Below, one piece after another: positions 38,598-46,795 of a stretch of DNA of 64,000 nucleotides (its first letter is position 1; each line of letters starts with the position of its first letter). The stretch is from a virus. The stretch is taken from positions 1-64,000 of IMG/VR virus record IMGVR_UViG_3300021181_000010, one strand, 5' to 3'. A model generated the notes under the pieces. It saw only the letters and a program-made list of their open reading frames with translations, was not told where the DNA came from and searched no databases. The translations under genes and the position numbers were made by a program.

Positions 38598-39392
38598 CTA
38601 TTTAGAAAGAGCGTGTACTACTTTCTGAGGATTGACGTGATACCAACCGGAACAATGCAGACAGTTGATTTCGCCGACTTTGAGTCCTTTGTCAGTCTTA
38701 AAAATGTCAATGACGTAGCTGTCAGTAGCGAAGGGGAACTTTTCTACCATGCGTTGGGCGTAGCTGGTGACGTACCAATTCTCGTCGGCATTGGAATACT
38801 GAATGTCACCATTGCGGACGTATTGGGAAGCTGAGACTACTTCACCGTTAATGACCCAGACTCGCCATTCATCAGTGATCGTTTTGACCGGCGCAGTGAC
38901 GAACAGAGAATCGCCATTGATCGGATGCCAGTCGTGATGATGTGGATTAGAATCGTTTTCTCGATCTTCTGTAAAACCACGAACCCAATCCGGCCATGCA
39001 TAGGCGTTGATAACTTTGCCTTTGATGATGTTAAATCCGGCAGCTTCACGAATATAAATTTTGCCTTGGTCTGGAACCACCAACTTGTCGAGCGGACCAA
39101 CCGTCATGTCGTAGTTGATGAATTCTTCGCCAAGAGCAAGCAGGCTGGAGTATTCGTAACTTTTGTCCCAGAACACTTTCCATCCTTGTTTCATTGCATA
39201 GGCGACGAAGGATCGTGTACCAAAAGGAATCAGTTCGCTTGGTACAGTGTCGGTGAGCTTGAGATCAATCGTGGATTCCCAGAACACATAGTCGAGTTGG
39301 ATACGGCGGTCGCCAGTTGCATCGATAGCGGCTGTGAATTGGTCGATCCCAAATTCGTCACCAAACATTGCATTTTGTACGAGCCAGATCAT
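38598..39392 (-). CDS. Hypothetical protein, 264 aa (possibly ATP-grasp-like)
   Basis: No firm motif; assignment speculative. Confidence 0.4.
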   Translation of the reverse strand: MIWLVQNAMFGDEFGIDQFTAAIDATGDRRIQLDYVFWESTIDLKLTDTVPSELIPFGTRSFVAYAMKQGWKVFWDKSYEYSSLLALGEEFINYDMTVGPLDKLVVPDQGKIYIREAAGFNIIKGKVINAYAWPDWVRGFTEDRENDSNPHHHDWHPINGDSLFVTAPVKTITDEWRVWVINGEVVSASQYVRNGDIQYSNADENWYVTSYAQRMVEKFPFATDSYVIDIFKTDKGLKVGEINCLHCSGWYHVNPQKVVHALSK

Positions 39393-40024: not shown

Positions 40025-40564
40025 TCACGATTGTTTGACAGGCGCAATCAGAGCGACAGCGAGTTTGCCATCTTGACGTGGAATCGATTCAGGCTTTCCA
40101 AATGGCTCCAGGTCGGCAATGAGACGTTTGAGAAGATCGTATCCAATGTTGGTATGAGCGATCTCTCGGCCACGGAACTGAACGACGGCTCGGACTTTGT
40201 TGCCGTCTTTCAGGAATTCAATTGCATGTTTCTTTTTGAAATCGTAATCGTGATCGTCAGTGTTTGGCCGGAACTTCAGTTCTTTGATGACGGTGACGTG
40301 TTGGTGACGCTTTGCTTCTTGTTTTTTCTTTTTCTCTTCAAACAAATACTTACCGTGGTCCATAACTTTGGCGACGGGCGGCTTGGCAGTTGGAGAAATG
40401 CAGATGAGATCAAGGTTGAGTGCTCTGGCTCGTTGGATTGCTTGATTGGTTGGAAGGATGACGTTGGAGCCATCTGGGAAGATTGTCCGAACTTCAGGAA
40501 ACCGGATACCTTCGTTTACGTTATCTTTGATTTTTGGTCGTGGGGTTCTTGGTTGATATGCCAT
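40025..40564 (-). CDS. infC: Translation initiation factor IF-3 homolog
   Basis: 179 aa; VNEGIRFPEVRTIFPDGSNV...ALNLDLICISPTAKPPVAKVMDHGKYLFEEKKKKQEAKRHQHVTVIKELKFRPNTDDHDYDFKKKHAIEFLKDGNKVRAVVQFRGREIAHTNIG follows the conserved IF-3 N-/C-domain sequence pattern. Confidence 0.8.
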   Translation of the reverse strand: MAYQPRTPRPKIKDNVNEGIRFPEVRTIFPDGSNVILPTNQAIQRARALNLDLICISPTAKPPVAKVMDHGKYLFEEKKKKQEAKRHQHVTVIKELKFRPNTDDHDYDFKKKHAIEFLKDGNKVRAVVQFRGREIAHTNIGYDLLKRLIADLEPFGKPESIPRQDGKLAVALIAPVKQS

Positions 40565-41770: not shown

Positions 41771-41810
41771 GCTTTGATGATACTGTATTTTTGTTGAGTT
41801 GTAAAGGGGT

Positions 41811-41842
41811 GCTGCGAAAACACCCCCTTTTGATGGCCGCAG
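41811..41842. terminator. Rho-independent terminator-like hairpin (GGGGTG-ctgcgaaaa-CACCCC then TTTTG)
   Basis: 6-bp GC-rich stem, 9-nt loop, T-run on plus strand; complementary strand gives GGGGGTG...CACCCC plus TTTAC, so it may act in both directions at the edge of the tRNA-like array. Confidence 0.5.
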
Positions 41843-42129
41843 GATTCTACTGTTTCCAATCCTGCCAAAGTCAACCGCTAAACTTTCCCGGTTGGTCAGC
41901 CTACGTCTCGTGCAGGCTACGCTATTCTTTCACAGTATGTCACGATACTTGCCGAACCAATTAAGGCCGGGGAACTGACTGTCAGCTACTCGATAAAGAA
42001 TAAATTTTAGTGGAAGCATCCGACCATCTTACGATGACTTTGCTGCCCCGTCCACAAGCGGGAACGTTTTAGCCTGTTTCGATTACTCTAACAGATTACT
42101 CTTTCGAGAGACGTTCGTGACAGACTTTT

Positions 42130-43100
42130 TAACCCAGGTCTGCCAGCCGGATTCTCCTCAAATGGAGTTGTCGGCGAACCGATTCCATACACTCAGGAGT
42201 CGAGAAATTTTTGATCCGAACAAATGGGAGCAATGGATGTTGTTAGGTGCTCTACCATTGAGCTACGTCCTCCATAATAATTTTGGGAGGACGATGGGAC
42301 TCGAACCCATAACCACCCGCTTAATAGGCGATAACCCATCACGAACGGCTCGAATCAAACTTGAATCGTGAACAAATAAGCGCCATCCGAGGTTTAGCAT
42401 CTTAACCATTAGACGATACTAGTTTTACCCAGCAGCGGGACTCGAACCCACATCGCTCGTTTTATAGACGATAACGGACAACAAACGGCTCACGAAAATT
42501 TTGGTGCGAACAAATGGCGACAGTAGGGAATGCTCACTCTTTTCAAGTTTTGCTGAACTTCGCCCAGGCCGAGACCTTTACGAGCGGTGAGGATTCGACC
42601 CCACTCTTTCATTACCCTTGCGGATAATGACGTTCCAAACCAATAGATAACCTACCAATCAACGGCTCACACTAAACTCTTCTACTTGTTTTTATAATCG
42701 GTCTCGTAGAACCCCGATCCTTTGAAGTGAATCGCAACAGGCGACATCAACTTCTCCAGCTTACCACCGCACTCATGTCTGTCAAGCGGTGCATCATCCA
42801 TTCGTTGTCGAACTTCAAATATTTCTCCGCACTTTTCACAAACGTATTCGTACAGTGCCATTCAAATTTATTGTCCGAACAAATGATCGCCTAAGGAAAT
42901 TTGTGACGGTCGCTCTACCAACTGAGCTACATCCAACGTTAACGTTCGCACGCCTAGATGGAAGACAGGACTCGAACCTGCGGCCTACTGTTTGGAATGA
43001 TAACCCTAAACTACGGCTCGAACAAAACTCTATCTCCCGAAAGGATCTTCCTTCACTTCTGGCTCCATATTACCGTTCGCACGACTTTTTAGCCATCGTT
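42130..43100 (-). other. Array of atypical tRNA-like units (T-arm, acceptor and D-arm segments with shared flanking motifs)
   Basis: Four T-arm-like GGTTCGA(G/A)TCC hairpins (rc at 42306, 42447, 42590, 42969), D-arm-like GCTCA(A/G)TGGTAGAGC segments (rc at 42249 and 42908), repeated motifs CGAACAAATG (42221, 42372, 42496, 42876) and AACGGCTC (42335, 42484, 42660, 43003); none folds into a canonical tRNA by eye. Confidence 0.4.
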
Positions 43101-43125
43101 CTAGCTTAAACTACAGGAGAAAATC

Positions 43126-43202
43126 TGGTAGTCAGTCTCGGACTCGAACCGAGGGCCTTCTCCGTGTAAAGGAGTTGCTCTAACCAACTGAGCTAACCGA
43201 CT
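43126..43202 (-). tRNA. tRNA-Val (anticodon TAC)
   Basis: Acceptor AGTCGGT/ACTGACT, D-arm GCTCAGTTGGTTAGAGC, anticodon stem ACTCC/GGAGA loop TTTACAC, T-arm CTCGGTTCGAGTCCGAG, CCA. Confidence 0.8.
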
Positions 43203-43207
43203 AAAAT

Positions 43208-43284
43208 TGGTAGCGGATCTAGGAGTCGAACCTAGTATCTCAAGGTTATGAGTCTTGAATGGTTGTCCGTTCCACTCACCCGCA
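43208..43284 (-). tRNA. tRNA-Met or Ile2 (anticodon CAT)
   Basis: T-arm CTAGGTTCGACTCCTAG, CCA encoded, anticodon loop CTCATAA; acceptor has one T-T mismatch at 1-72 as read by eye. Confidence 0.6.
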
Positions 43285-43401
43285 AATCGAAACCGGAGCA
43301 TACTGCGCTCTACGGTAAACTTGTATTCCTGCCTACGTCCTCTCGCCTTCAGTCATTATGGTACGAAACCCATGCATAGATTCCGCACTGAGGATCATCA
43401 G

Positions 43402-43851
43402 TCACCGTAAAGCTCGGTTCGCATCTACGAACAACTGCAACGCTACGGAATGCCGTTTTTCCGGCAGGAAATTCTCATATGTTTCTATCCTGTGGCAATT
43501 GGCACACAGAACTTCACATTTTGCAATCTCAGCACGTACCCTAGCTTCGCTCCAACATTTACGAACCGCATCGGCCACGTTTGCTACTTTATCACGCAAA
43601 TGATGAAAATCAAGAACTCTAAAATCCTTGATCCCACATTCTACGCATCCACTCGCCTCTTTCAAAGTTCTAACCAACAACAGAAGACGCTCTTTCGTAG
43701 CACGATTATGAATCAATGCCCTAGCTTTTAACTTGGCTTTGTTATTCAAATAATGCCGATGAGCACTCTCTTTCTGTTTGATCTTACACTTATGAGGCAT
43801 TCTGGTTGCGGCAGATGGCTTCGATCCATCGACTTCTTGCTTATGAGGCAA
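43402..43851 (-). CDS. HNH endonuclease
   Basis: CVECG...LDFHHLRDK...CANCH HNH zinc-finger nuclease motif; sits inside the tRNA-like region. Confidence 0.65.
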   Translation of the reverse strand: MPHKQEVDGSKPSAATRMPHKCKIKQKESAHRHYLNNKAKLKARALIHNRATKERLLLLVRTLKEASGCVECGIKDFRVLDFHHLRDKVANVADAVRKCWSEARVRAEIAKCEVLCANCHRIETYENFLPEKRHSVALQLFVDANRALR

Positions 43852-44174
43852 GCGTTCTACCGGGCTGAACTATACCGCAAAAACTTTCGCAATGAACAAA
43901 TTTTTCAATGTCGGGTTTTCCTGGCATCTTAAAAGAACGCTGATAACCAACATCTTCGGCTCATCACTGCTTTACTATCTATACACGCAAAAATTGTGTA
44001 GAGCGAACAAATATGTAGGTCTCCGCTTGTAACTACCGCCCGGACGCAATCAATATTACTACTGACTGCGGTATGGAATCGAACCACATCGCCTTTTTTG
44101 CAGAAAGAGAACAGAAACCCAGGCGGCTCACTCTGACTTATTTAGAATACCACACCCAGTCACAGTGTCAAGTA

Positions 44175-44480
44175 TTATTTTCCGAGAAAGAACAAAGACG
44201 AATAGATGCCGGTCACCGTACCAAGAACACCACCGGCAGTATAACCGATCCATTGAATAAAAGTGTCCTCATCTTTGCCTTTCATCATTTTCTTGATCAC
44301 AAAAAATGTCAATGAGGCCAGTGTTGTATCTGTGATGATAGCCGCCAGAACGTTAGCCTGTGCGACGGCTCTCCATGAGATTGTACAAAGACCCCAATTG
44401 AAAAACTGCATGGCTCCAATTTCAAGTGCATCAATGATCTGTTTCTTGTTGACTGCTGGAAATCGGAAAATTACTTTCAT
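44175..44480 (-). CDS. Small membrane protein
   Basis: 101 aa, two TM helices. Confidence 0.35.
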   Translation of the reverse strand: MKVIFRFPAVNKKQIIDALEIGAMQFFNWGLCTISWRAVAQANVLAAIITDTTLASLTFFVIKKMMKGKDEDTFIQWIGYTAGGVLGTVTGIYSSLFFLGK

Positions 44481-44493
44481 GCTTGGATTTAGA

Positions 44494-44967
44494 CTAAGCT
44501 AAAACTGCAACATGCTTACCCAGGCGTGCAGAAAAATAACTTACAGCTTCTTCATACGAAGAGAAAATGTTCGCAGTCGGAAACCTTTCACGAAGATCCT
44601 TTTCAGTCTTCTTCAGAGCTTTTAAGAGATGGCCGCTGTACTCTCTGTTGTCGAACACAATCACAGTAGTACTTGGCTTATCGTACAAGCCCATCACAGC
44701 CTCGACAATGCTGTAGACAGAAACATGTGTCGCATCGCCGGGGTTCGGAGAGCAGATGTAAAAGAGGTTATATTGCGCCTCACGTTTTGCCTGATCTTCT
44801 GCGACTTGACATTCCGGTGTCCAATCAGGAACTACAGGATTATAAAGGGATTCTGCCGGAACACCAGCAGCTACAAGATCATCAATGAAAGTGGACCGCC
44901 ATGTGGTAGATCCGACAGTACCGCCAAGGAAAATGGATGTGTGTGACATGAATTTATCACACCACAT
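44494..44967 (-). CDS. Nucleoside 2-deoxyribosyltransferase-like protein
   Basis: N-terminal IFLGGT glycine-rich motif typical of the nucleoside deoxyribosyltransferase-like fold; weak. Confidence 0.35.
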   Translation of the reverse strand: MWCDKFMSHTSIFLGGTVGSTTWRSTFIDDLVAAGVPAESLYNPVVPDWTPECQVAEDQAKREAQYNLFYICSPNPGDATHVSVYSIVEAVMGLYDKPSTTVIVFDNREYSGHLLKALKKTEKDLRERFPTANIFSSYEEAVSYFSARLGKHVAVLA

Positions 44968-46529: not shown

Positions 46530-46713
46530 TATTTTAGTGACTTTAGATATTCCGAAATTCGTGCATCTCTTATGGCTTGATCCTGTTTGAATGCTTTCAT
46601 CTGAGCGTTGAACTTGCGTCGTTCTTCATTTGGCAAAAACCATCCAATTAACAGGCCGACGACAGCCGATCCTGCGAGAAACATCCAAATTTCAGAATTG
46701 GTCATTTATAAGT

Positions 46714-46795
46714 GAGCGGGTGCGGGAGTTGAACCCACATTTCCATCGGTGATCAAACCGGGCTAGGCGTCCTGTCCATTTAGACGAACCCTCTC
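46714..46795 (-). pseudogene. tRNA-like element with aberrant anticodon arm
   Basis: T-arm GTGGGTTCAACTCCCGC, acceptor GAGAGGG/ACCCGCT (one mismatch), D-arm CGTCTAAATGGACAGGACG, but the anticodon region CGGT-TTGATC-ACCG has a 6-nt loop; no CCA. Confidence 0.3.

What the first reader, a model, noticed from the sequence alone, without database searches (positions are those of the whole stretch)
42130..44170. Two-kilobase ORF-poor region packed with a family of tRNA-like units carrying shared motifs
Between a strong terminator hairpin (41811-41842) and 44.2 kb the only convincing CDS is an HNH endonuclease. The rest contains at least five units that each carry a T-arm-like GGTTCGAGTCC hairpin, plus D-arm-like segments, often in non-canonical order. 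They are flanked by recurring motifs: CGAACAAATG (42221, 42372, 42496, 42876, 44000) and (A)ACGGCTC(A/G) (42335, 42484, 42660, 43003, 44100). There are additional strong hairpins, for example the 8-bp stem with GCAA tetraloop CATTATCCGCAAGGGTAATG at about 42613-42640 (minus strand). Only two units (Val, Met at 43126-43284) fold as canonical tRNAs. The rest may be intron-containing, split or permuted tRNAs, or a tRNA-derived repeat family acting as decoys or processing substrates.
Basis: seen in the sequence. Interest (0 to 1): 0.7.

Follow-up and report, generated by a model that had tools for sequence, protein, structure and literature searches.

The report
Phage Y RNA (tRNA-mimic) gene array
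The "scrambled tRNA" units are genes for Y RNAs, small non-coding RNAs that combine a tRNA look-alike domain with a docking helix for the Ro60/Rsr protein; seven of them sit among the tRNA genes of a 404-kb phage, so this is a known class of RNA in an unusually large and unusually placed set.

Summary
On the minus strand, 42214-44133 holds six units, and a seventh lies at 33570-33727. Each has the same plan: a 5' strand GAGCCG, then GGUUAUC, an optional small hairpin, a T arm, an acceptor-like stem closed by a loop, a D arm, and a 3' strand UUUGUUC that pairs back to the 5' end. This is the architecture of bacterial and phage Y RNAs of the YrlA type: a tRNA body in circularly permuted order set on a Ro60/Rsr-binding bulged helix.

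- Rfam YrlA matches two units below its threshold.
- A covariance model built here finds 158 relatives in IMG/VR phage contigs, with strong covariation.
- The model also finds the RNA directly upstream of the Ro gene of mycobacteriophage Catera.
- In Rsr loci chosen by protein alone, it hits 42 of 80, always on the Rsr strand.

No Rsr gene lies within 28-47 kb of the array. The rest of the 404-kb contig could not be read. Other giant phages keep such RNAs in tRNA arrays more than 100 kb from their Rsr gene.

The units are not split or intron-containing tRNAs. The RNA class is known; the copy number, the placement and some motif details are unusual.

The parts
44144..44171 (-). Sigma-70-like promoter (TTGACA, 16 nt with TG, TATTCT) about 7 nt upstream of the first base of unit U1
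   Evidence: Consensus scan, (10 of 12 matches). This is a consensus match only; transcription was not shown.
44001..44133 (-). Y RNA-like unit U1. It has GAGCCGC, UGUUCUC in place of GGUUAUC, a hairpin with loop CUGCAAA, a T arm, a closed acceptor hairpin, a degenerate D arm, and AUUUGUUCG.
   Evidence: Model R1, 44.9 bits, E 2.7e-8. U1 was not in the model. Sequence read.
43890..43966 (-). Short Y RNA-like unit U2 with no T or D arm. It has GAGCCGAAG (an exact GNCGAAG motif), GGUUAUC, one hairpin with loop CUUUUAA, and AAUUUGUUCA.
   Evidence: Model R1, 30.2 bits, E 5.5e-5. Similar short units lie next to Rsr in other loci.
43803..43879 (-). Canonical tRNA-Met (CAU)
   Evidence: ARAGORN; Rfam tRNA 62.1 bits.
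43402..43800 (-). HNH endonuclease gene inserted between tRNA genes
   Evidence: PHROG 2255 HNH endonuclease, 3.5e-21. No Pfam hit.
43211..43284 (-). tRNA with CAU anticodon and an atypical D arm
   Evidence: Rfam tRNA 39.6 bits, above the gathering score. Missed by ARAGORN.
43126..43202 (-). Canonical tRNA-Val (UAC)
   Evidence: 65 bits.
42873..43023 (-). Y RNA-like unit U3, with a 10-bp closing stem, GAGCCGUAG, GGGUUAUC, a T arm, a closed acceptor hairpin, a canonical D arm and CAUUUGUUCGG
   Evidence: Model R1, 79.6 bits, E 4e-16. U3 was not in the model. Rfam YrlA 27.7 bits, E 0.0035. G15:C48 Levitt pair.
42682..42861 (-). 59-aa zinc-ribbon ORF between units U3 and U4
   Evidence: Pfam PF09723 Zn_ribbon_8, 3.5e-12, above its cut-off.
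42504..42672 (-). Divergent unit U4. It has GUGUGAGCCGU...GGUUAUC, a 9-bp hairpin with a GCAA loop (42609-42630) at the V position, a T-like arm with a 6-nt loop, no clear D arm, and CAUUUGUUCGCAC.
   Evidence: Both motifs and the complementary closing stem were read directly. The model score is weak: 9.5 bits, E 2.6.
42366..42495 (-). Y RNA-like unit U5 (V hairpin loop CUAUAAA)
   Evidence: Model R1, 94.2 bits; U5 was in the seed. A15:U48.
42214..42355 (-). Y RNA-like unit U6, the clearest example. Sub-elements: 5' Ro-helix strand GAGCCG 42346-42351; GGUUAUC 42330-42336; V hairpin with loop CUAUUAA 42317-42331; T arm 42294-42310; closed acceptor hairpin 42266-42293; D arm 42249-42263; 3' strand UUGUUC 42218-42223.
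   Evidence: Rfam YrlA over the full model, 40 bits, E 1e-6. Model R1 108.9 bits; U6 was in the seed. Sequence.
41843..42213 (-). 371-nt non-coding stretch between U6 and the terminator-like hairpin; function unknown
   Evidence: No ORF of 40 aa or more on the minus strand. Fold z-score -0.48. No Rfam or R1 match. No similarity in any fetched locus.
41806..41827 (-). GC-rich hairpin (GGGGUG/CACCCC) followed by UUU, the likely end of the transcription unit
   Evidence: Read directly. Not called by the terminator scan because the T run is short.
33570..33727 (-). Seventh Y RNA-like unit, U7, inside the tRNA-Leu cluster. Its tRNA-like body is of the class II type, with a variable-arm hairpin. Its D arm plus anticodon-stem strand match the phage's own tRNA-Leu (CAA and CAG) at 21-22 of 23-24 nt.
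   Evidence: Model R1, 47.2 bits, E 8e-9. U7 was not in the model. Comparison with the window's tRNAs.

Best explanation
The units are genes for Y RNA-like non-coding RNAs of the YrlA type.

How each RNA is built:
- Its 5' and 3' ends pair into a long stem.
- The base of that stem is a conserved bulged helix: 5'-GAGC[C]G-3' opposite 5'-UUGUUC-3', with C9 bulged and a G.U pair next to it. This corresponds to the Ro60-binding helix of animal Y RNAs (GGUC[C]GA opposite UUGACC).
- The far end of the stem carries a tRNA body in which the Y stem takes the place of the anticodon loop and the acceptor stem is closed by a loop. Along the gene the order therefore reads V hairpin, T arm, acceptor hairpin, D arm.

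How it most likely works:
- The six clustered units are probably transcribed together with three tRNAs from a promoter at about 44171, ending at the hairpin at about 41806, and are then cut out of the precursor (inferred).
- The RNAs probably bind an Rsr/Ro60 ring protein, encoded either elsewhere in the 404-kb phage genome or by the host.
- They would then use the tRNA-like domain to recruit a second factor, such as PNPase or a tRNA-recognising enzyme. This would retarget RNA degradation, quality control or repair during infection, as described for bacterial Rsr-Y RNA-PNPase complexes and for Thermus phage phiLo.

Shown here: the anatomy, family membership by model and covariation, the family's linkage to Rsr genes, and tRNA-like tertiary covariation.
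Inferred: transcription, processing, Rsr binding and the downstream effect.
For: 1. Rfam RF02553 YrlA aligns U6 over the whole model (40 bits, E 1e-6) and U3 in part (27.7 bits, E 0.0035).

2. A motif scan of IMG/VR returned 80 loci. A model built from 24 units finds 158 matches at E<=1e-3. It finds the window units that were not in the seed at 30-80 bits.

3. Covariation supports the structure.
- 24 of 31 predicted pairs show compensatory changes.
- On 141 distinct sequences, 94.2% of cells are paired, against 62.4% in shuffles and 42% or less with slid partners. All five helices vary on both sides.

4. The tRNA Levitt pair 15:48 is G:C or A:U in 68 of 85 units, against a mean of 36 and a maximum of 51 in 2000 shuffles. 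U3, U5, U6 and U7 conform.

5. The family is linked to Rsr.
- 37 of the 80 RNA-selected loci encode Rsr.
- In 80 loci chosen only by the Rsr protein, the model hits 42. All 92 hits are on the Rsr strand.
- It hits the RNA directly upstream of the Ro gene of mycobacteriophage Catera at 88.5 bits.

6. The helix columns are nearly invariant: G5, G7, C8, C9 and G10 are each present in 134-138 of 141 sequences, and A6 in 114. G10 faces U (118) or C (17). Chen et al. 2014 (PMC4201824) describe:
- the GNCGAA/GGUCCGA Ro-binding motif;
- the T, AS, D and V stem-loops;
- the conserved YUAY that begins V, which corresponds to UUAUC here.

7. Doubling the units turns them into ARAGORN-callable tRNAs with the Y stem as an insert at the anticodon loop.

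8. A promoter-like site lies immediately upstream of U1.

9. Other giant phages hold such units inside tRNA arrays far from their Rsr gene. On contig 3300049044_000033 they lie at 184-197 kb and Rsr at 304-312 kb. On 3300034073_003340 they lie at 319-321 kb and Rsr at 10-18 kb.
Against: - No Rsr/TROVE gene lies in the window or in the 5 kb and 8 kb beyond its ends. tblastn gives E>0.1, and a profile gives E>2 while positive controls reach 1e-222. The discovery criterion of lying within 4 kb of Rsr on the same strand is therefore not met.
- An Rsr homolog search listed no hit on a 404,282-bp contig. It showed only 120 of 844 hits, so this is inconclusive.
- All units score below Rfam's YrlA gathering score. 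However, that model also misses the Catera RNA and every phage locus tested.
- Six of the seven units have U or C where the published motif GNCGAA has A. Rsr-adjacent units in other phages show the same variation.
- U4 scores only 9.5 bits. U1 and U4 have degenerate D arms. U2 has no tRNA-like body.
- Nothing here shows transcription, processing or protein binding.
- The alignment used for the large covariation count was fitted to the model.
Confidence: 0.85

Rival explanations
1. They are functional circularly permuted or split tRNA genes. The transcripts would be circularised or cut in the acceptor loop (RNase P, 3' trimming, CCA addition) to give decoding-competent tRNAs, possibly two-piece. 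These would supply amino-acid specificities missing from the phage's tRNA set.
For: - The topology is that of a permuted tRNA.
- Four units carry a hairpin with an anticodon-loop signature: CUAUUAA, CUAUAAA, CUGCAAA and CUUUUAA. The middle triplets correspond to Asn, Tyr, Cys and Lys. No tRNA for any of these four is found in the window.
- M. smegmatis YrlA is cleaved by RNase P and receives CCA (PMC4201824).
Against: - The conserved flanks are a Ro-binding helix, not a bulge-helix-bulge splice motif, and the family sits next to Rsr genes.
- The acceptor loops are as short as about 5 nt (U5).
- The acceptor stems are 6-8 bp, some with mismatches.
- Two of the 'anticodons' begin with A, which is unusual for real tRNAs.
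- U3, U4 and U7 have no such hairpin.
- The tRNA set outside the window is unknown.
Confidence: 0.03
2. They are Rsr-independent tRNA mimics that act as decoys or sponges. They would soak up host anticodon nucleases, or other tRNA-targeting defence or modification enzymes, and so protect the phage's and host's real tRNAs.
For: - Across the family, 25 of 84 long units have a hairpin of at least 3 bp with a 7-nt loop reading CU-NNN-AA. The rate in shuffles is 0.5%.
- No Rsr gene is nearby in this window.
- The units are embedded in a tRNA array, with an RNA ligase gene about 6 kb beyond the window end.
Against: - The most conserved part of every unit is the Ro-binding helix, which a pure decoy would not need.
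- The family's linkage to Rsr is strong.
- Giant phages with the same layout do encode Rsr far away.
- The decoy role could coexist with Rsr binding rather than replace it.
Confidence: 0.07
3. They are non-functional debris: tRNA pseudogenes and rearranged tRNA fragments left by recombination or homing-endonuclease activity in a tRNA array. Alternatively they are search artefacts in which the T arm of one tRNA and the D arm of the next imitate a YrlA.
For: - An HNH endonuclease gene sits in the block.
- Chen et al. warn that tandem tRNAs give false YrlA matches.
- The model does give such cross-hits at real tandem tRNAs, for example 43173-43252.
- U4 and U1 are partly degenerate.
Against: - The units do not overlap any tRNA call.
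- Each has its own closing stem and closed acceptor hairpin.
- All helices, including the Y stem, covary across 141 distinct sequences from dozens of unrelated phage contigs.
- The Levitt pair covaries.
Confidence: 0.03

Closest known systems
YrlA (Y RNA-like A) of bacteria and mycobacteriophages: Rfam RF02553; Chen et al. 2014, RNA 20:1715 (PMC4201824); Wang et al. 2018 (bioRxiv 312249)
   Same: - A Ro-binding motif near the 5' end.
- A conserved YUAY (here UUAUC) that begins a V stem-loop.
- A T arm, a closed acceptor-like stem-loop and a D arm, in that order.
- tRNA tertiary pairs, including the covarying 15:48 pair.
- Several copies per locus, and presence in phages.
- The model built here scores the RNA directly upstream of the Ro gene of Catera, a mycobacteriophage, at 88.5 bits.
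   Different: - Both strands of the Ro helix are conserved (GAGC[C]G opposite UUGYUC). For Salmonella and M. smegmatis only the 5' strand is reported as recognisable.
- Six of the seven window units have GCCGU or GCCGC instead of GNCGAA.
- All units score below Rfam's threshold.
- There are seven copies.
- The units lie inside a tRNA array, with no Rsr gene within 28-47 kb.
- One unit has a class II tRNA-Leu-like body.
- The V hairpin often looks like an anticodon stem-loop.
Animal Y RNAs and Deinococcus radiodurans Yrn1
   Same: - A long stem formed by the two ends.
- A bulged-C helix with both strands conserved, flanked by a G.U pair, as the Ro60 docking site (as described in PMC4201824 for GGUCCGA and its 3' partner).
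- From my memory of the human Y1, Y4 and Y5 sequences, they also carry GGGUUAU(C) just above the upper stem. I did not verify this here.
   Different: - Animal Y RNAs have no tRNA-like T, acceptor and D body.
- Rfam Y_RNA gave no match to the window units even at E<=10.
- Yrn1 has a different arm order.
Yrl1 and Yrl2 of Thermus phage phiLo (NAR 2025, PMC12135203)
   Same: They are phage-encoded Y RNA-like RNAs with a CGAA-type motif in a stem-bulge-stem. They bind a phage Ro60, and together with it the host PNPase. This gives a concrete precedent for the proposed mechanism.
   Different: - phiLo has two RNAs, directly upstream of its Ro60 gene.
- The paper does not use the term 'tRNA-like' for them.
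- Here there are seven RNAs in a tRNA array, and no Ro60 gene is in view.
Circularly permuted tRNA genes (Cyanidioschyzon merolae; Thermofilum) and split tRNAs of Nanoarchaeum. This comparison is from my own knowledge, not checked here.
   Same: The 3' part of the tRNA body (T arm, acceptor 3' strand) precedes the 5' part (acceptor 5' strand, D arm) along the gene.
   Different: - Those genes mature into normal tRNAs through a bulge-helix-bulge motif and the archaeal/eukaryal splicing endonuclease.
- Here there is no bulge-helix-bulge motif.
- The junction carries a conserved Ro-binding stem.
- The acceptor stem stays closed.
- The system is bacterial and viral.

Membership tests
YrlA-type Y RNA | Ro60/Rsr-binding motif near the 5' end (published as GNCGAAN0-1G, related to vertebrate GGUCCGA) | tested here: inconclusive
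   The core G-N-C-C-G is present in all seven units (GAGCCG). The exact GNCGAA(N)G motif occurs only in U2 (GAGCCGAAG). U3-U7 have GCCGU and U1 has GCCGC. Across 141 family members the position after CCG is A 78, G 31, C 17, U 12. Rsr-adjacent units such as L045/L049 (GAGCCGUAG) share the window's variant.
YrlA-type Y RNA | tRNA-like domain with a T arm, a closed acceptor-like stem-loop and a D arm, in that order, with tRNA-invariant nucleotides | tested here: met
   Met for U3, U5, U6 and U7. Covariation of all three arms is shown. U1 and U4 meet it only in part. U2 lacks the domain, as short YrlB-like RNAs do.
YrlA-type Y RNA | tRNA tertiary interactions, notably the covarying Levitt pair G15:C48 or A15:U48 | tested here: met
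   68 of 85 family members have the pair, against 36 expected. In the window: U3 G:C; U5, U6 and U7 A:U.
YrlA-type Y RNA | Conserved YUAY beginning a V stem-loop upstream of the T arm | tested here: met
   UUAUC is present in six of seven units (UUCUC in U1). A V hairpin is present in U1, U2, U4, U5, U6 and U7.
YrlA-type Y RNA | Encoded within about 4 kb of an Rsr/Ro60 gene on the same strand (the operational criterion of the discovery paper) | tested here: not met
   No TROVE/Rsr homolog lies in the window or its flanks, so none lies within 28 kb on one side and 47 kb on the other. This is a search criterion rather than a property of the RNA. Two giant phage contigs hold family members more than 100 kb from their Rsr gene.
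YrlA-type Y RNA | Score at or above the Rfam RF02553 gathering threshold (69 bits) | tested here: not met
   The best score is 40 bits. The same model also fails on mycobacteriophage Catera's Ro-adjacent RNA and on five other phage loci. The threshold therefore does not discriminate for phage members.
YrlA-type Y RNA | Physical binding to Rsr/Ro60, and modification by tRNA enzymes (TruB, DusA) or cleavage by RNase P | not testable with these tools
   This needs biochemistry or RNA sequencing.
Canonical, intron-containing or split tRNA gene | Cloverleaf with open acceptor ends in the 5'-to-3' order acceptor, D, anticodon, T, acceptor, with or without an intron | tested here: not met
   ARAGORN with and without introns, and Rfam tRNA, call only the three ordinary tRNAs in 41800-44250, plus one artefact with a 561-nt 'intron'.
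Circularly permuted tRNA gene (algal/archaeal type) | Permuted halves whose leader and trailer form a bulge-helix-bulge splice motif, leading to a mature tRNA with an anticodon loop | tested here: not met
   The permuted order is present. However, the leader and trailer form a long conserved Ro-type stem, not a bulge-helix-bulge motif. The anticodon-loop position is occupied by that stem.

The most novel reading that the evidence does not exclude
In this phage Y RNA family the 'V' hairpin is a deliberate anticodon stem-loop mimic. It has a 7-nt loop reading CU-NNN-AA in 30% of units, against 0.5% in shuffles. Each paralog would then imitate a particular tRNA almost completely.

On this reading, the seven-member set in the tRNA island works as a panel of tRNA-specific baits. 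They could present look-alike anticodon loops to host anticodon nucleases, or to repair or modification enzymes, while tethered to Rsr. Or, after cleavage of the acceptor loop, they could act as two-piece tRNAs for Asn, Tyr, Cys and Lys.

My evidence does not exclude this, but it does not test it either.
Probability: 0.08. Interest if true: 0.75.

Novelty: new member of a known kind. Interest (0 to 1): 0.4.

Why it matters
What bacterial and phage Y RNAs do is still poorly understood, and they are almost never annotated. None of the units here, nor those in Streptomyces phage Jay2Jay, is annotated or reaches Rfam's threshold.

This case shows three things:
- A giant phage can carry at least seven different Y RNAs.
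- These RNAs are placed among tRNA genes rather than beside Rsr.
- A single simple model recovers more than 200 such RNAs in viral contigs.

That gives a practical way to annotate them. It also gives a natural panel of paralogs for asking what the tRNA-like domain recruits during infection: RNA decay through PNPase, RNA repair, or protection from tRNA-targeting defences. Finally, it warns that odd 'permuted tRNA' signals in phage tRNA islands are likely to be Y RNAs.

Tried and rejected
- **Self-cleaving ribozymes, group I intron halves or BHB splice sites in the flanks.** The flanks are too short. An Rfam scan at E<=10 gave no ribozyme or intron family. The flanks pair with each other as one long stem.
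- **An extra unit at 43024-43125 ('U2b').** The TTTTGTTCG there is simply the 5' strand of U3's 10-bp closing stem. The model gives no match.
- **DNA similarity of the region to cultured phages.** Only tRNA matches were found.
- **Exact match of U6 in IMG/VR.** None.
- **Syntenic relatives via the neighbouring 157-aa protein.** Five loci were found, none with Y RNAs.
- **Locating Rsr in the source genome.**
  - tblastn and a profile search on the window and flanks found nothing.
  - A homolog search seeded with the Rsr of the phage carrying the most similar Y RNA variant listed no protein from a 404,282-bp contig. Only 120 of 844 hits were shown.
  - The rest of the contig could not be read with these tools.
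- **The 371-nt stretch at 41843-42213.** No ORF, no exceptional fold, no family match and no similarity elsewhere. It remains unexplained.
- **A vault-like link (MVP homolog + TROVE protein + small RNA).** One phage contig has Rsr, four Y RNAs and an MVP homolog within 6 kb (L048/L208). Of 79 MVP loci, only that one has Rsr, and 2-4 have Y RNAs. I rejected this as a general association.
- **The 2020 Annual Review on bacterial Ro60 and the supplements of Chen et al. 2014.** Neither is held.
Full report
**Context.** The window is part of a 404,282-bp contig (ENA ERZ27253678, k141_5803278). It comes from a distant T4-like giant phage.
- It carries gp5, gp6 and gp8 baseplate genes.
- The baseplate wedge protein is at most about 40% identical to that of any cultured phage.
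- Nearly all genes, and all 25 detected tRNA genes, are on the minus strand between 19.6 and 53 kb.

**Checking the observation.** On the minus strand, the flagged region contains repeated units with a fixed plan:
- a few variable bases
- GAGCCG
- 7-9 bases
- GGUUAUC
- often a small hairpin
- a T arm (GGUUCGAGUCC type)
- a hairpin that looks like a tRNA acceptor stem closed by a loop
- UA
- a D arm (GCUCAAUGGUAGAGC type)
- about 25 bases
- (C)AUUUGUUCG
- a few bases complementary to those before GAGCCG

There are six units in the block. I numbered them U1 to U6 in the direction of transcription:

| Unit | Coordinates |
|---|---|
| U1 | 44001-44133 |
| U2 | 43890-43966 |
| U3 | 42873-43023 |
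| U4 | 42504-42672 |
| U5 | 42366-42495 |
| U6 | 42214-42355 |

A seventh unit, U7 (33570-33727), lies in the tRNA-Leu cluster.

The block also holds three ordinary tRNAs (Met, a second CAU tRNA, and Val), an HNH endonuclease gene (PHROG hit) and a 59-aa zinc-ribbon ORF (Pfam hit). The statements 'only CDS' and 'only two tRNAs' therefore need correcting.

**What the units are.** A permissive Rfam scan gave one informative family. YrlA (Y RNA-like A) aligned to U6 over its full length (40 bits, E 1e-6) and to the core of U3. Both are below the curated threshold of 69 bits.

Published YrlA RNAs have a Ro60/Rsr-binding motif near the 5' end. They also have a tRNA-like domain made of a V stem-loop introduced by a conserved YUAY, a T arm, a closed acceptor-like stem-loop and a D arm (PMC4201824; bioRxiv 312249). 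That is exactly the order seen here.

I tested the topology directly. ARAGORN with introns allowed finds no further tRNA in the region. If each unit is duplicated head to tail, so that the permutation is undone, ARAGORN calls U3, U6 and U7 as tRNAs with a 34-64 nt insert at the anticodon loop. At a lower threshold it also calls U1 and U5. That insert is the Y stem.

**Relatives and structure.**
- A pattern built from the conserved pieces found 80 stretches in IMG/VR. Most are clear relatives, often in tandem arrays of three to six.
- An alignment of 24 units gave a consensus of five helices: basal stem, upper stem, T arm, acceptor hairpin and D arm. Compensatory changes occur in 24 of 31 pairs.
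- The covariance model R1 built from this alignment contained only U5 and U6 from the window. It still recovered U3 (79.6 bits), U7 (47.2), U1 (44.9) and U2 (30.2). U4 scored only 9.5 bits. I keep U4 as a divergent member because both terminal motifs, UUAUC and a complementary closing stem are present.
- Over 81 sources the model gave 158 matches. On 141 distinct sequences, 94% of pair cells are standard pairs, against 62% after shuffling and about 40% with slid partners. All helices change on both sides. That alignment was fitted to the model, so the earlier MAFFT-based count is the more independent one.
- The tRNA Levitt pair covaries: G15:C48 or A15:U48 in 68 of 85 units, against 36 expected. 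This argues for a real L-shaped fold.

**The flanking motifs.**
- In the family alignment, G5, G7, C8, C9 and G10 are each present in 134-138 of 141 sequences, and A6 in 114.
- G5, A6, G7 and C8 pair with C, U, Y and G of the 3' strand.
- C9 has no partner.
- G10 faces U (118 sequences) or C (17).
- This is the geometry described for the Ro60-binding bulged helix of vertebrate Y RNAs, GGUC[C]GA with its 3' partner (PMC4201824).
- Both strands are conserved here. For Salmonella and mycobacterial YrlA only the 5' strand is said to be recognisable.
- The window's units mostly read GCCGU rather than GNCGAA. That position varies across the family. The same variant occurs in units lying within 2 kb of an Rsr gene (L045 and L049).

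**Link to Rsr.**
- 37 of the 80 RNA-selected loci encode an Rsr homolog, usually just downstream on the same strand.
- As an independent test, I collected 80 viral loci using only the Rsr protein. R1 hit 42 of them, and all 92 hits are on the Rsr strand.
- In cultured phages, R1 scores 88.5 bits on the RNA directly upstream of the Ro gene of mycobacteriophage Catera. Mycobacteriophages are the group in which phage YrlAs were first reported.
- R1 also finds two unannotated units next to tRNA genes in Streptomyces phage Jay2Jay.
- Rfam's YrlA model reaches its threshold on none of these.

**The missing partner.**
- The window and the 5 and 8 kb beyond its ends contain no Rsr. This holds by tblastn and by a profile that scores controls at 1e-222. 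None therefore lies within 28 kb on one side and 47 kb on the other.
- I could not read the other roughly 330 kb of the contig. A homolog search did not reveal an Rsr from it (inconclusive).
- The layout has precedents. On two contigs of 436-462 kb, the Y RNAs sit in tRNA arrays more than 100 kb from Rsr. On two smaller contigs the distance is 10-15 kb.
- I therefore consider a distant phage Rsr, or the host's, the likely partner. This is inference.

**Expression.** A sigma-70-like promoter (TTGACA, 16 nt with TG, TATTCT) ends about 7 nt before U1. A GC-rich hairpin followed by UUU lies at 41806-41827. The simplest reading is one transcript carrying U1, U2, tRNA-Met, the HNH gene, two tRNAs, U3, the zinc-ribbon ORF, U4-U6 and a 371-nt tail, processed into small RNAs. 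None of this is shown.

**Mechanism.** By analogy, the RNAs dock on the Rsr ring through the bulged helix. They would use the tRNA-like domain to bring in a second factor or to gate Rsr's cavity. The phage would thereby redirect structured-RNA decay or repair. The precedents are:
- Rsr-Y RNA-PNPase complexes in Deinococcus and Salmonella;
- YrlA as a substrate of TruB, DusA and RNase P (PMC4201824);
- phage phiLo Ro60 with Yrl1/Yrl2 binding host PNPase (PMC12135203).

An RNA ligase gene about 6 kb beyond the window end fits an RNA-repair setting.

Having seven paralogs with different bodies suggests several targets or partners. The differences include:
- U7 has a class II tRNA-Leu-like body that matches the phage's own tRNA-Leu D arm at 21-22 of 23-24 nt.
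- U2 has no tRNA body.
- U4 has a long GCAA-capped V arm.

**An unexpected detail.** The V hairpin often looks like an anticodon stem-loop. In 25 of 84 long units it has a 7-nt loop reading CU-NNN-AA, against 0.5% in shuffles. The first 'anticodon' base is G or U in 22 of those 25. In the window the loops are CUAUUAA (U6), CUAUAAA (U5), CUGCAAA (U1) and CUUUUAA (U2). This is the basis of the low-probability 'bait' or 'two-piece tRNA' reading.

**Verdict.** The units are new members of the known YrlA-type Y RNA class, in an unusual number and genomic setting. Interest is moderate.

Noticed in passing
window 22906-25494 (-): An 862-aa ORF is a full-length homolog of the eukaryotic major vault protein.
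- Pfam MVP_shoulder 6.9e-22 and Vault_3.
- PDB MVP chains 1e-14 over residues 491-791.
- At least 130 relatives in IMG/VR, which is many more than the two phages in the 2023 preprint.
- 46 of 79 such loci have tRNA genes within 10 kb.
- Only one (L048/L208) also has Rsr plus four Y RNAs within 6 kb.
   Followed up: partly
family-wide (alignment A2); window 42317-42331, about 42457-42471, about 43925-43941, about 44093-44107: The 'V' hairpin of phage Y RNAs has an anticodon-loop signature: a 7-nt loop reading CU-NNN-AA. It occurs in 25 of 84 units, against 0.5% in shuffles. The published YrlA descriptions I read do not mention this.
   Followed up: partly
window 33570-33727 (-): Unit U7 sits in the tRNA-Leu cluster. 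Its D arm plus anticodon-stem strand is nearly identical to the phage's own tRNA-Leu(CAA/CAG). This suggests that Y RNA bodies are renewed by recombination with neighbouring tRNA genes.
   Followed up: partly
window 41843-42213 (-): A 371-nt stretch between U6 and the terminator-like hairpin has no ORF, no notable fold, no RNA family match and no similarity in any fetched locus.
   Followed up: yes
window 40025-40564 (-): A phage-encoded translation initiation factor IF-3 (IF3_N 3.7e-24, IF3_C 3.8e-29) lies just downstream of the array.
   Followed up: no
window 19687-53054 (-): The 25 tRNA genes are grouped by amino acid: Gly-Gly; Ser x3; Leu x4; Pro; Ser; Leu; Pro-Pro; Val; Met x2; His; Gln-Gln; Glu-Glu; Thr; Asp-Asp. 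No Ala, Arg, Asn, Cys, Ile, Lys, Phe, Trp or Tyr tRNA was found in the window.
   Followed up: no
window about 46712-46795 (-): A T-arm match (46722-46738) and a D-arm-like segment with a partly matching acceptor stem suggest an atypical tRNA-like gene. ARAGORN and Rfam do not call it, and its anticodon arm is irregular.
   Followed up: no
L088 7673-7816; L089 2420-2566 and 7099-7211: Rfam's YrlA model at its gathering score misses the Ro-adjacent Y RNA of mycobacteriophage Catera. It also misses two unannotated Y RNAs that directly follow tRNA genes in Streptomyces phage Jay2Jay. The model built here finds all three.
   Followed up: yes
L081 4355-5782 (about 6 kb beyond the window's high end); window 50127-51452, 38598-39392, 44494-44967: Nucleic-acid and nucleotide-handling genes lie around the tRNA/Y RNA island: an RNA ligase (PF09414), an ATP-dependent DNA ligase, an ATP-grasp R2K protein, and a nucleoside 2-deoxyribosyltransferase-like protein.
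   Followed up: no
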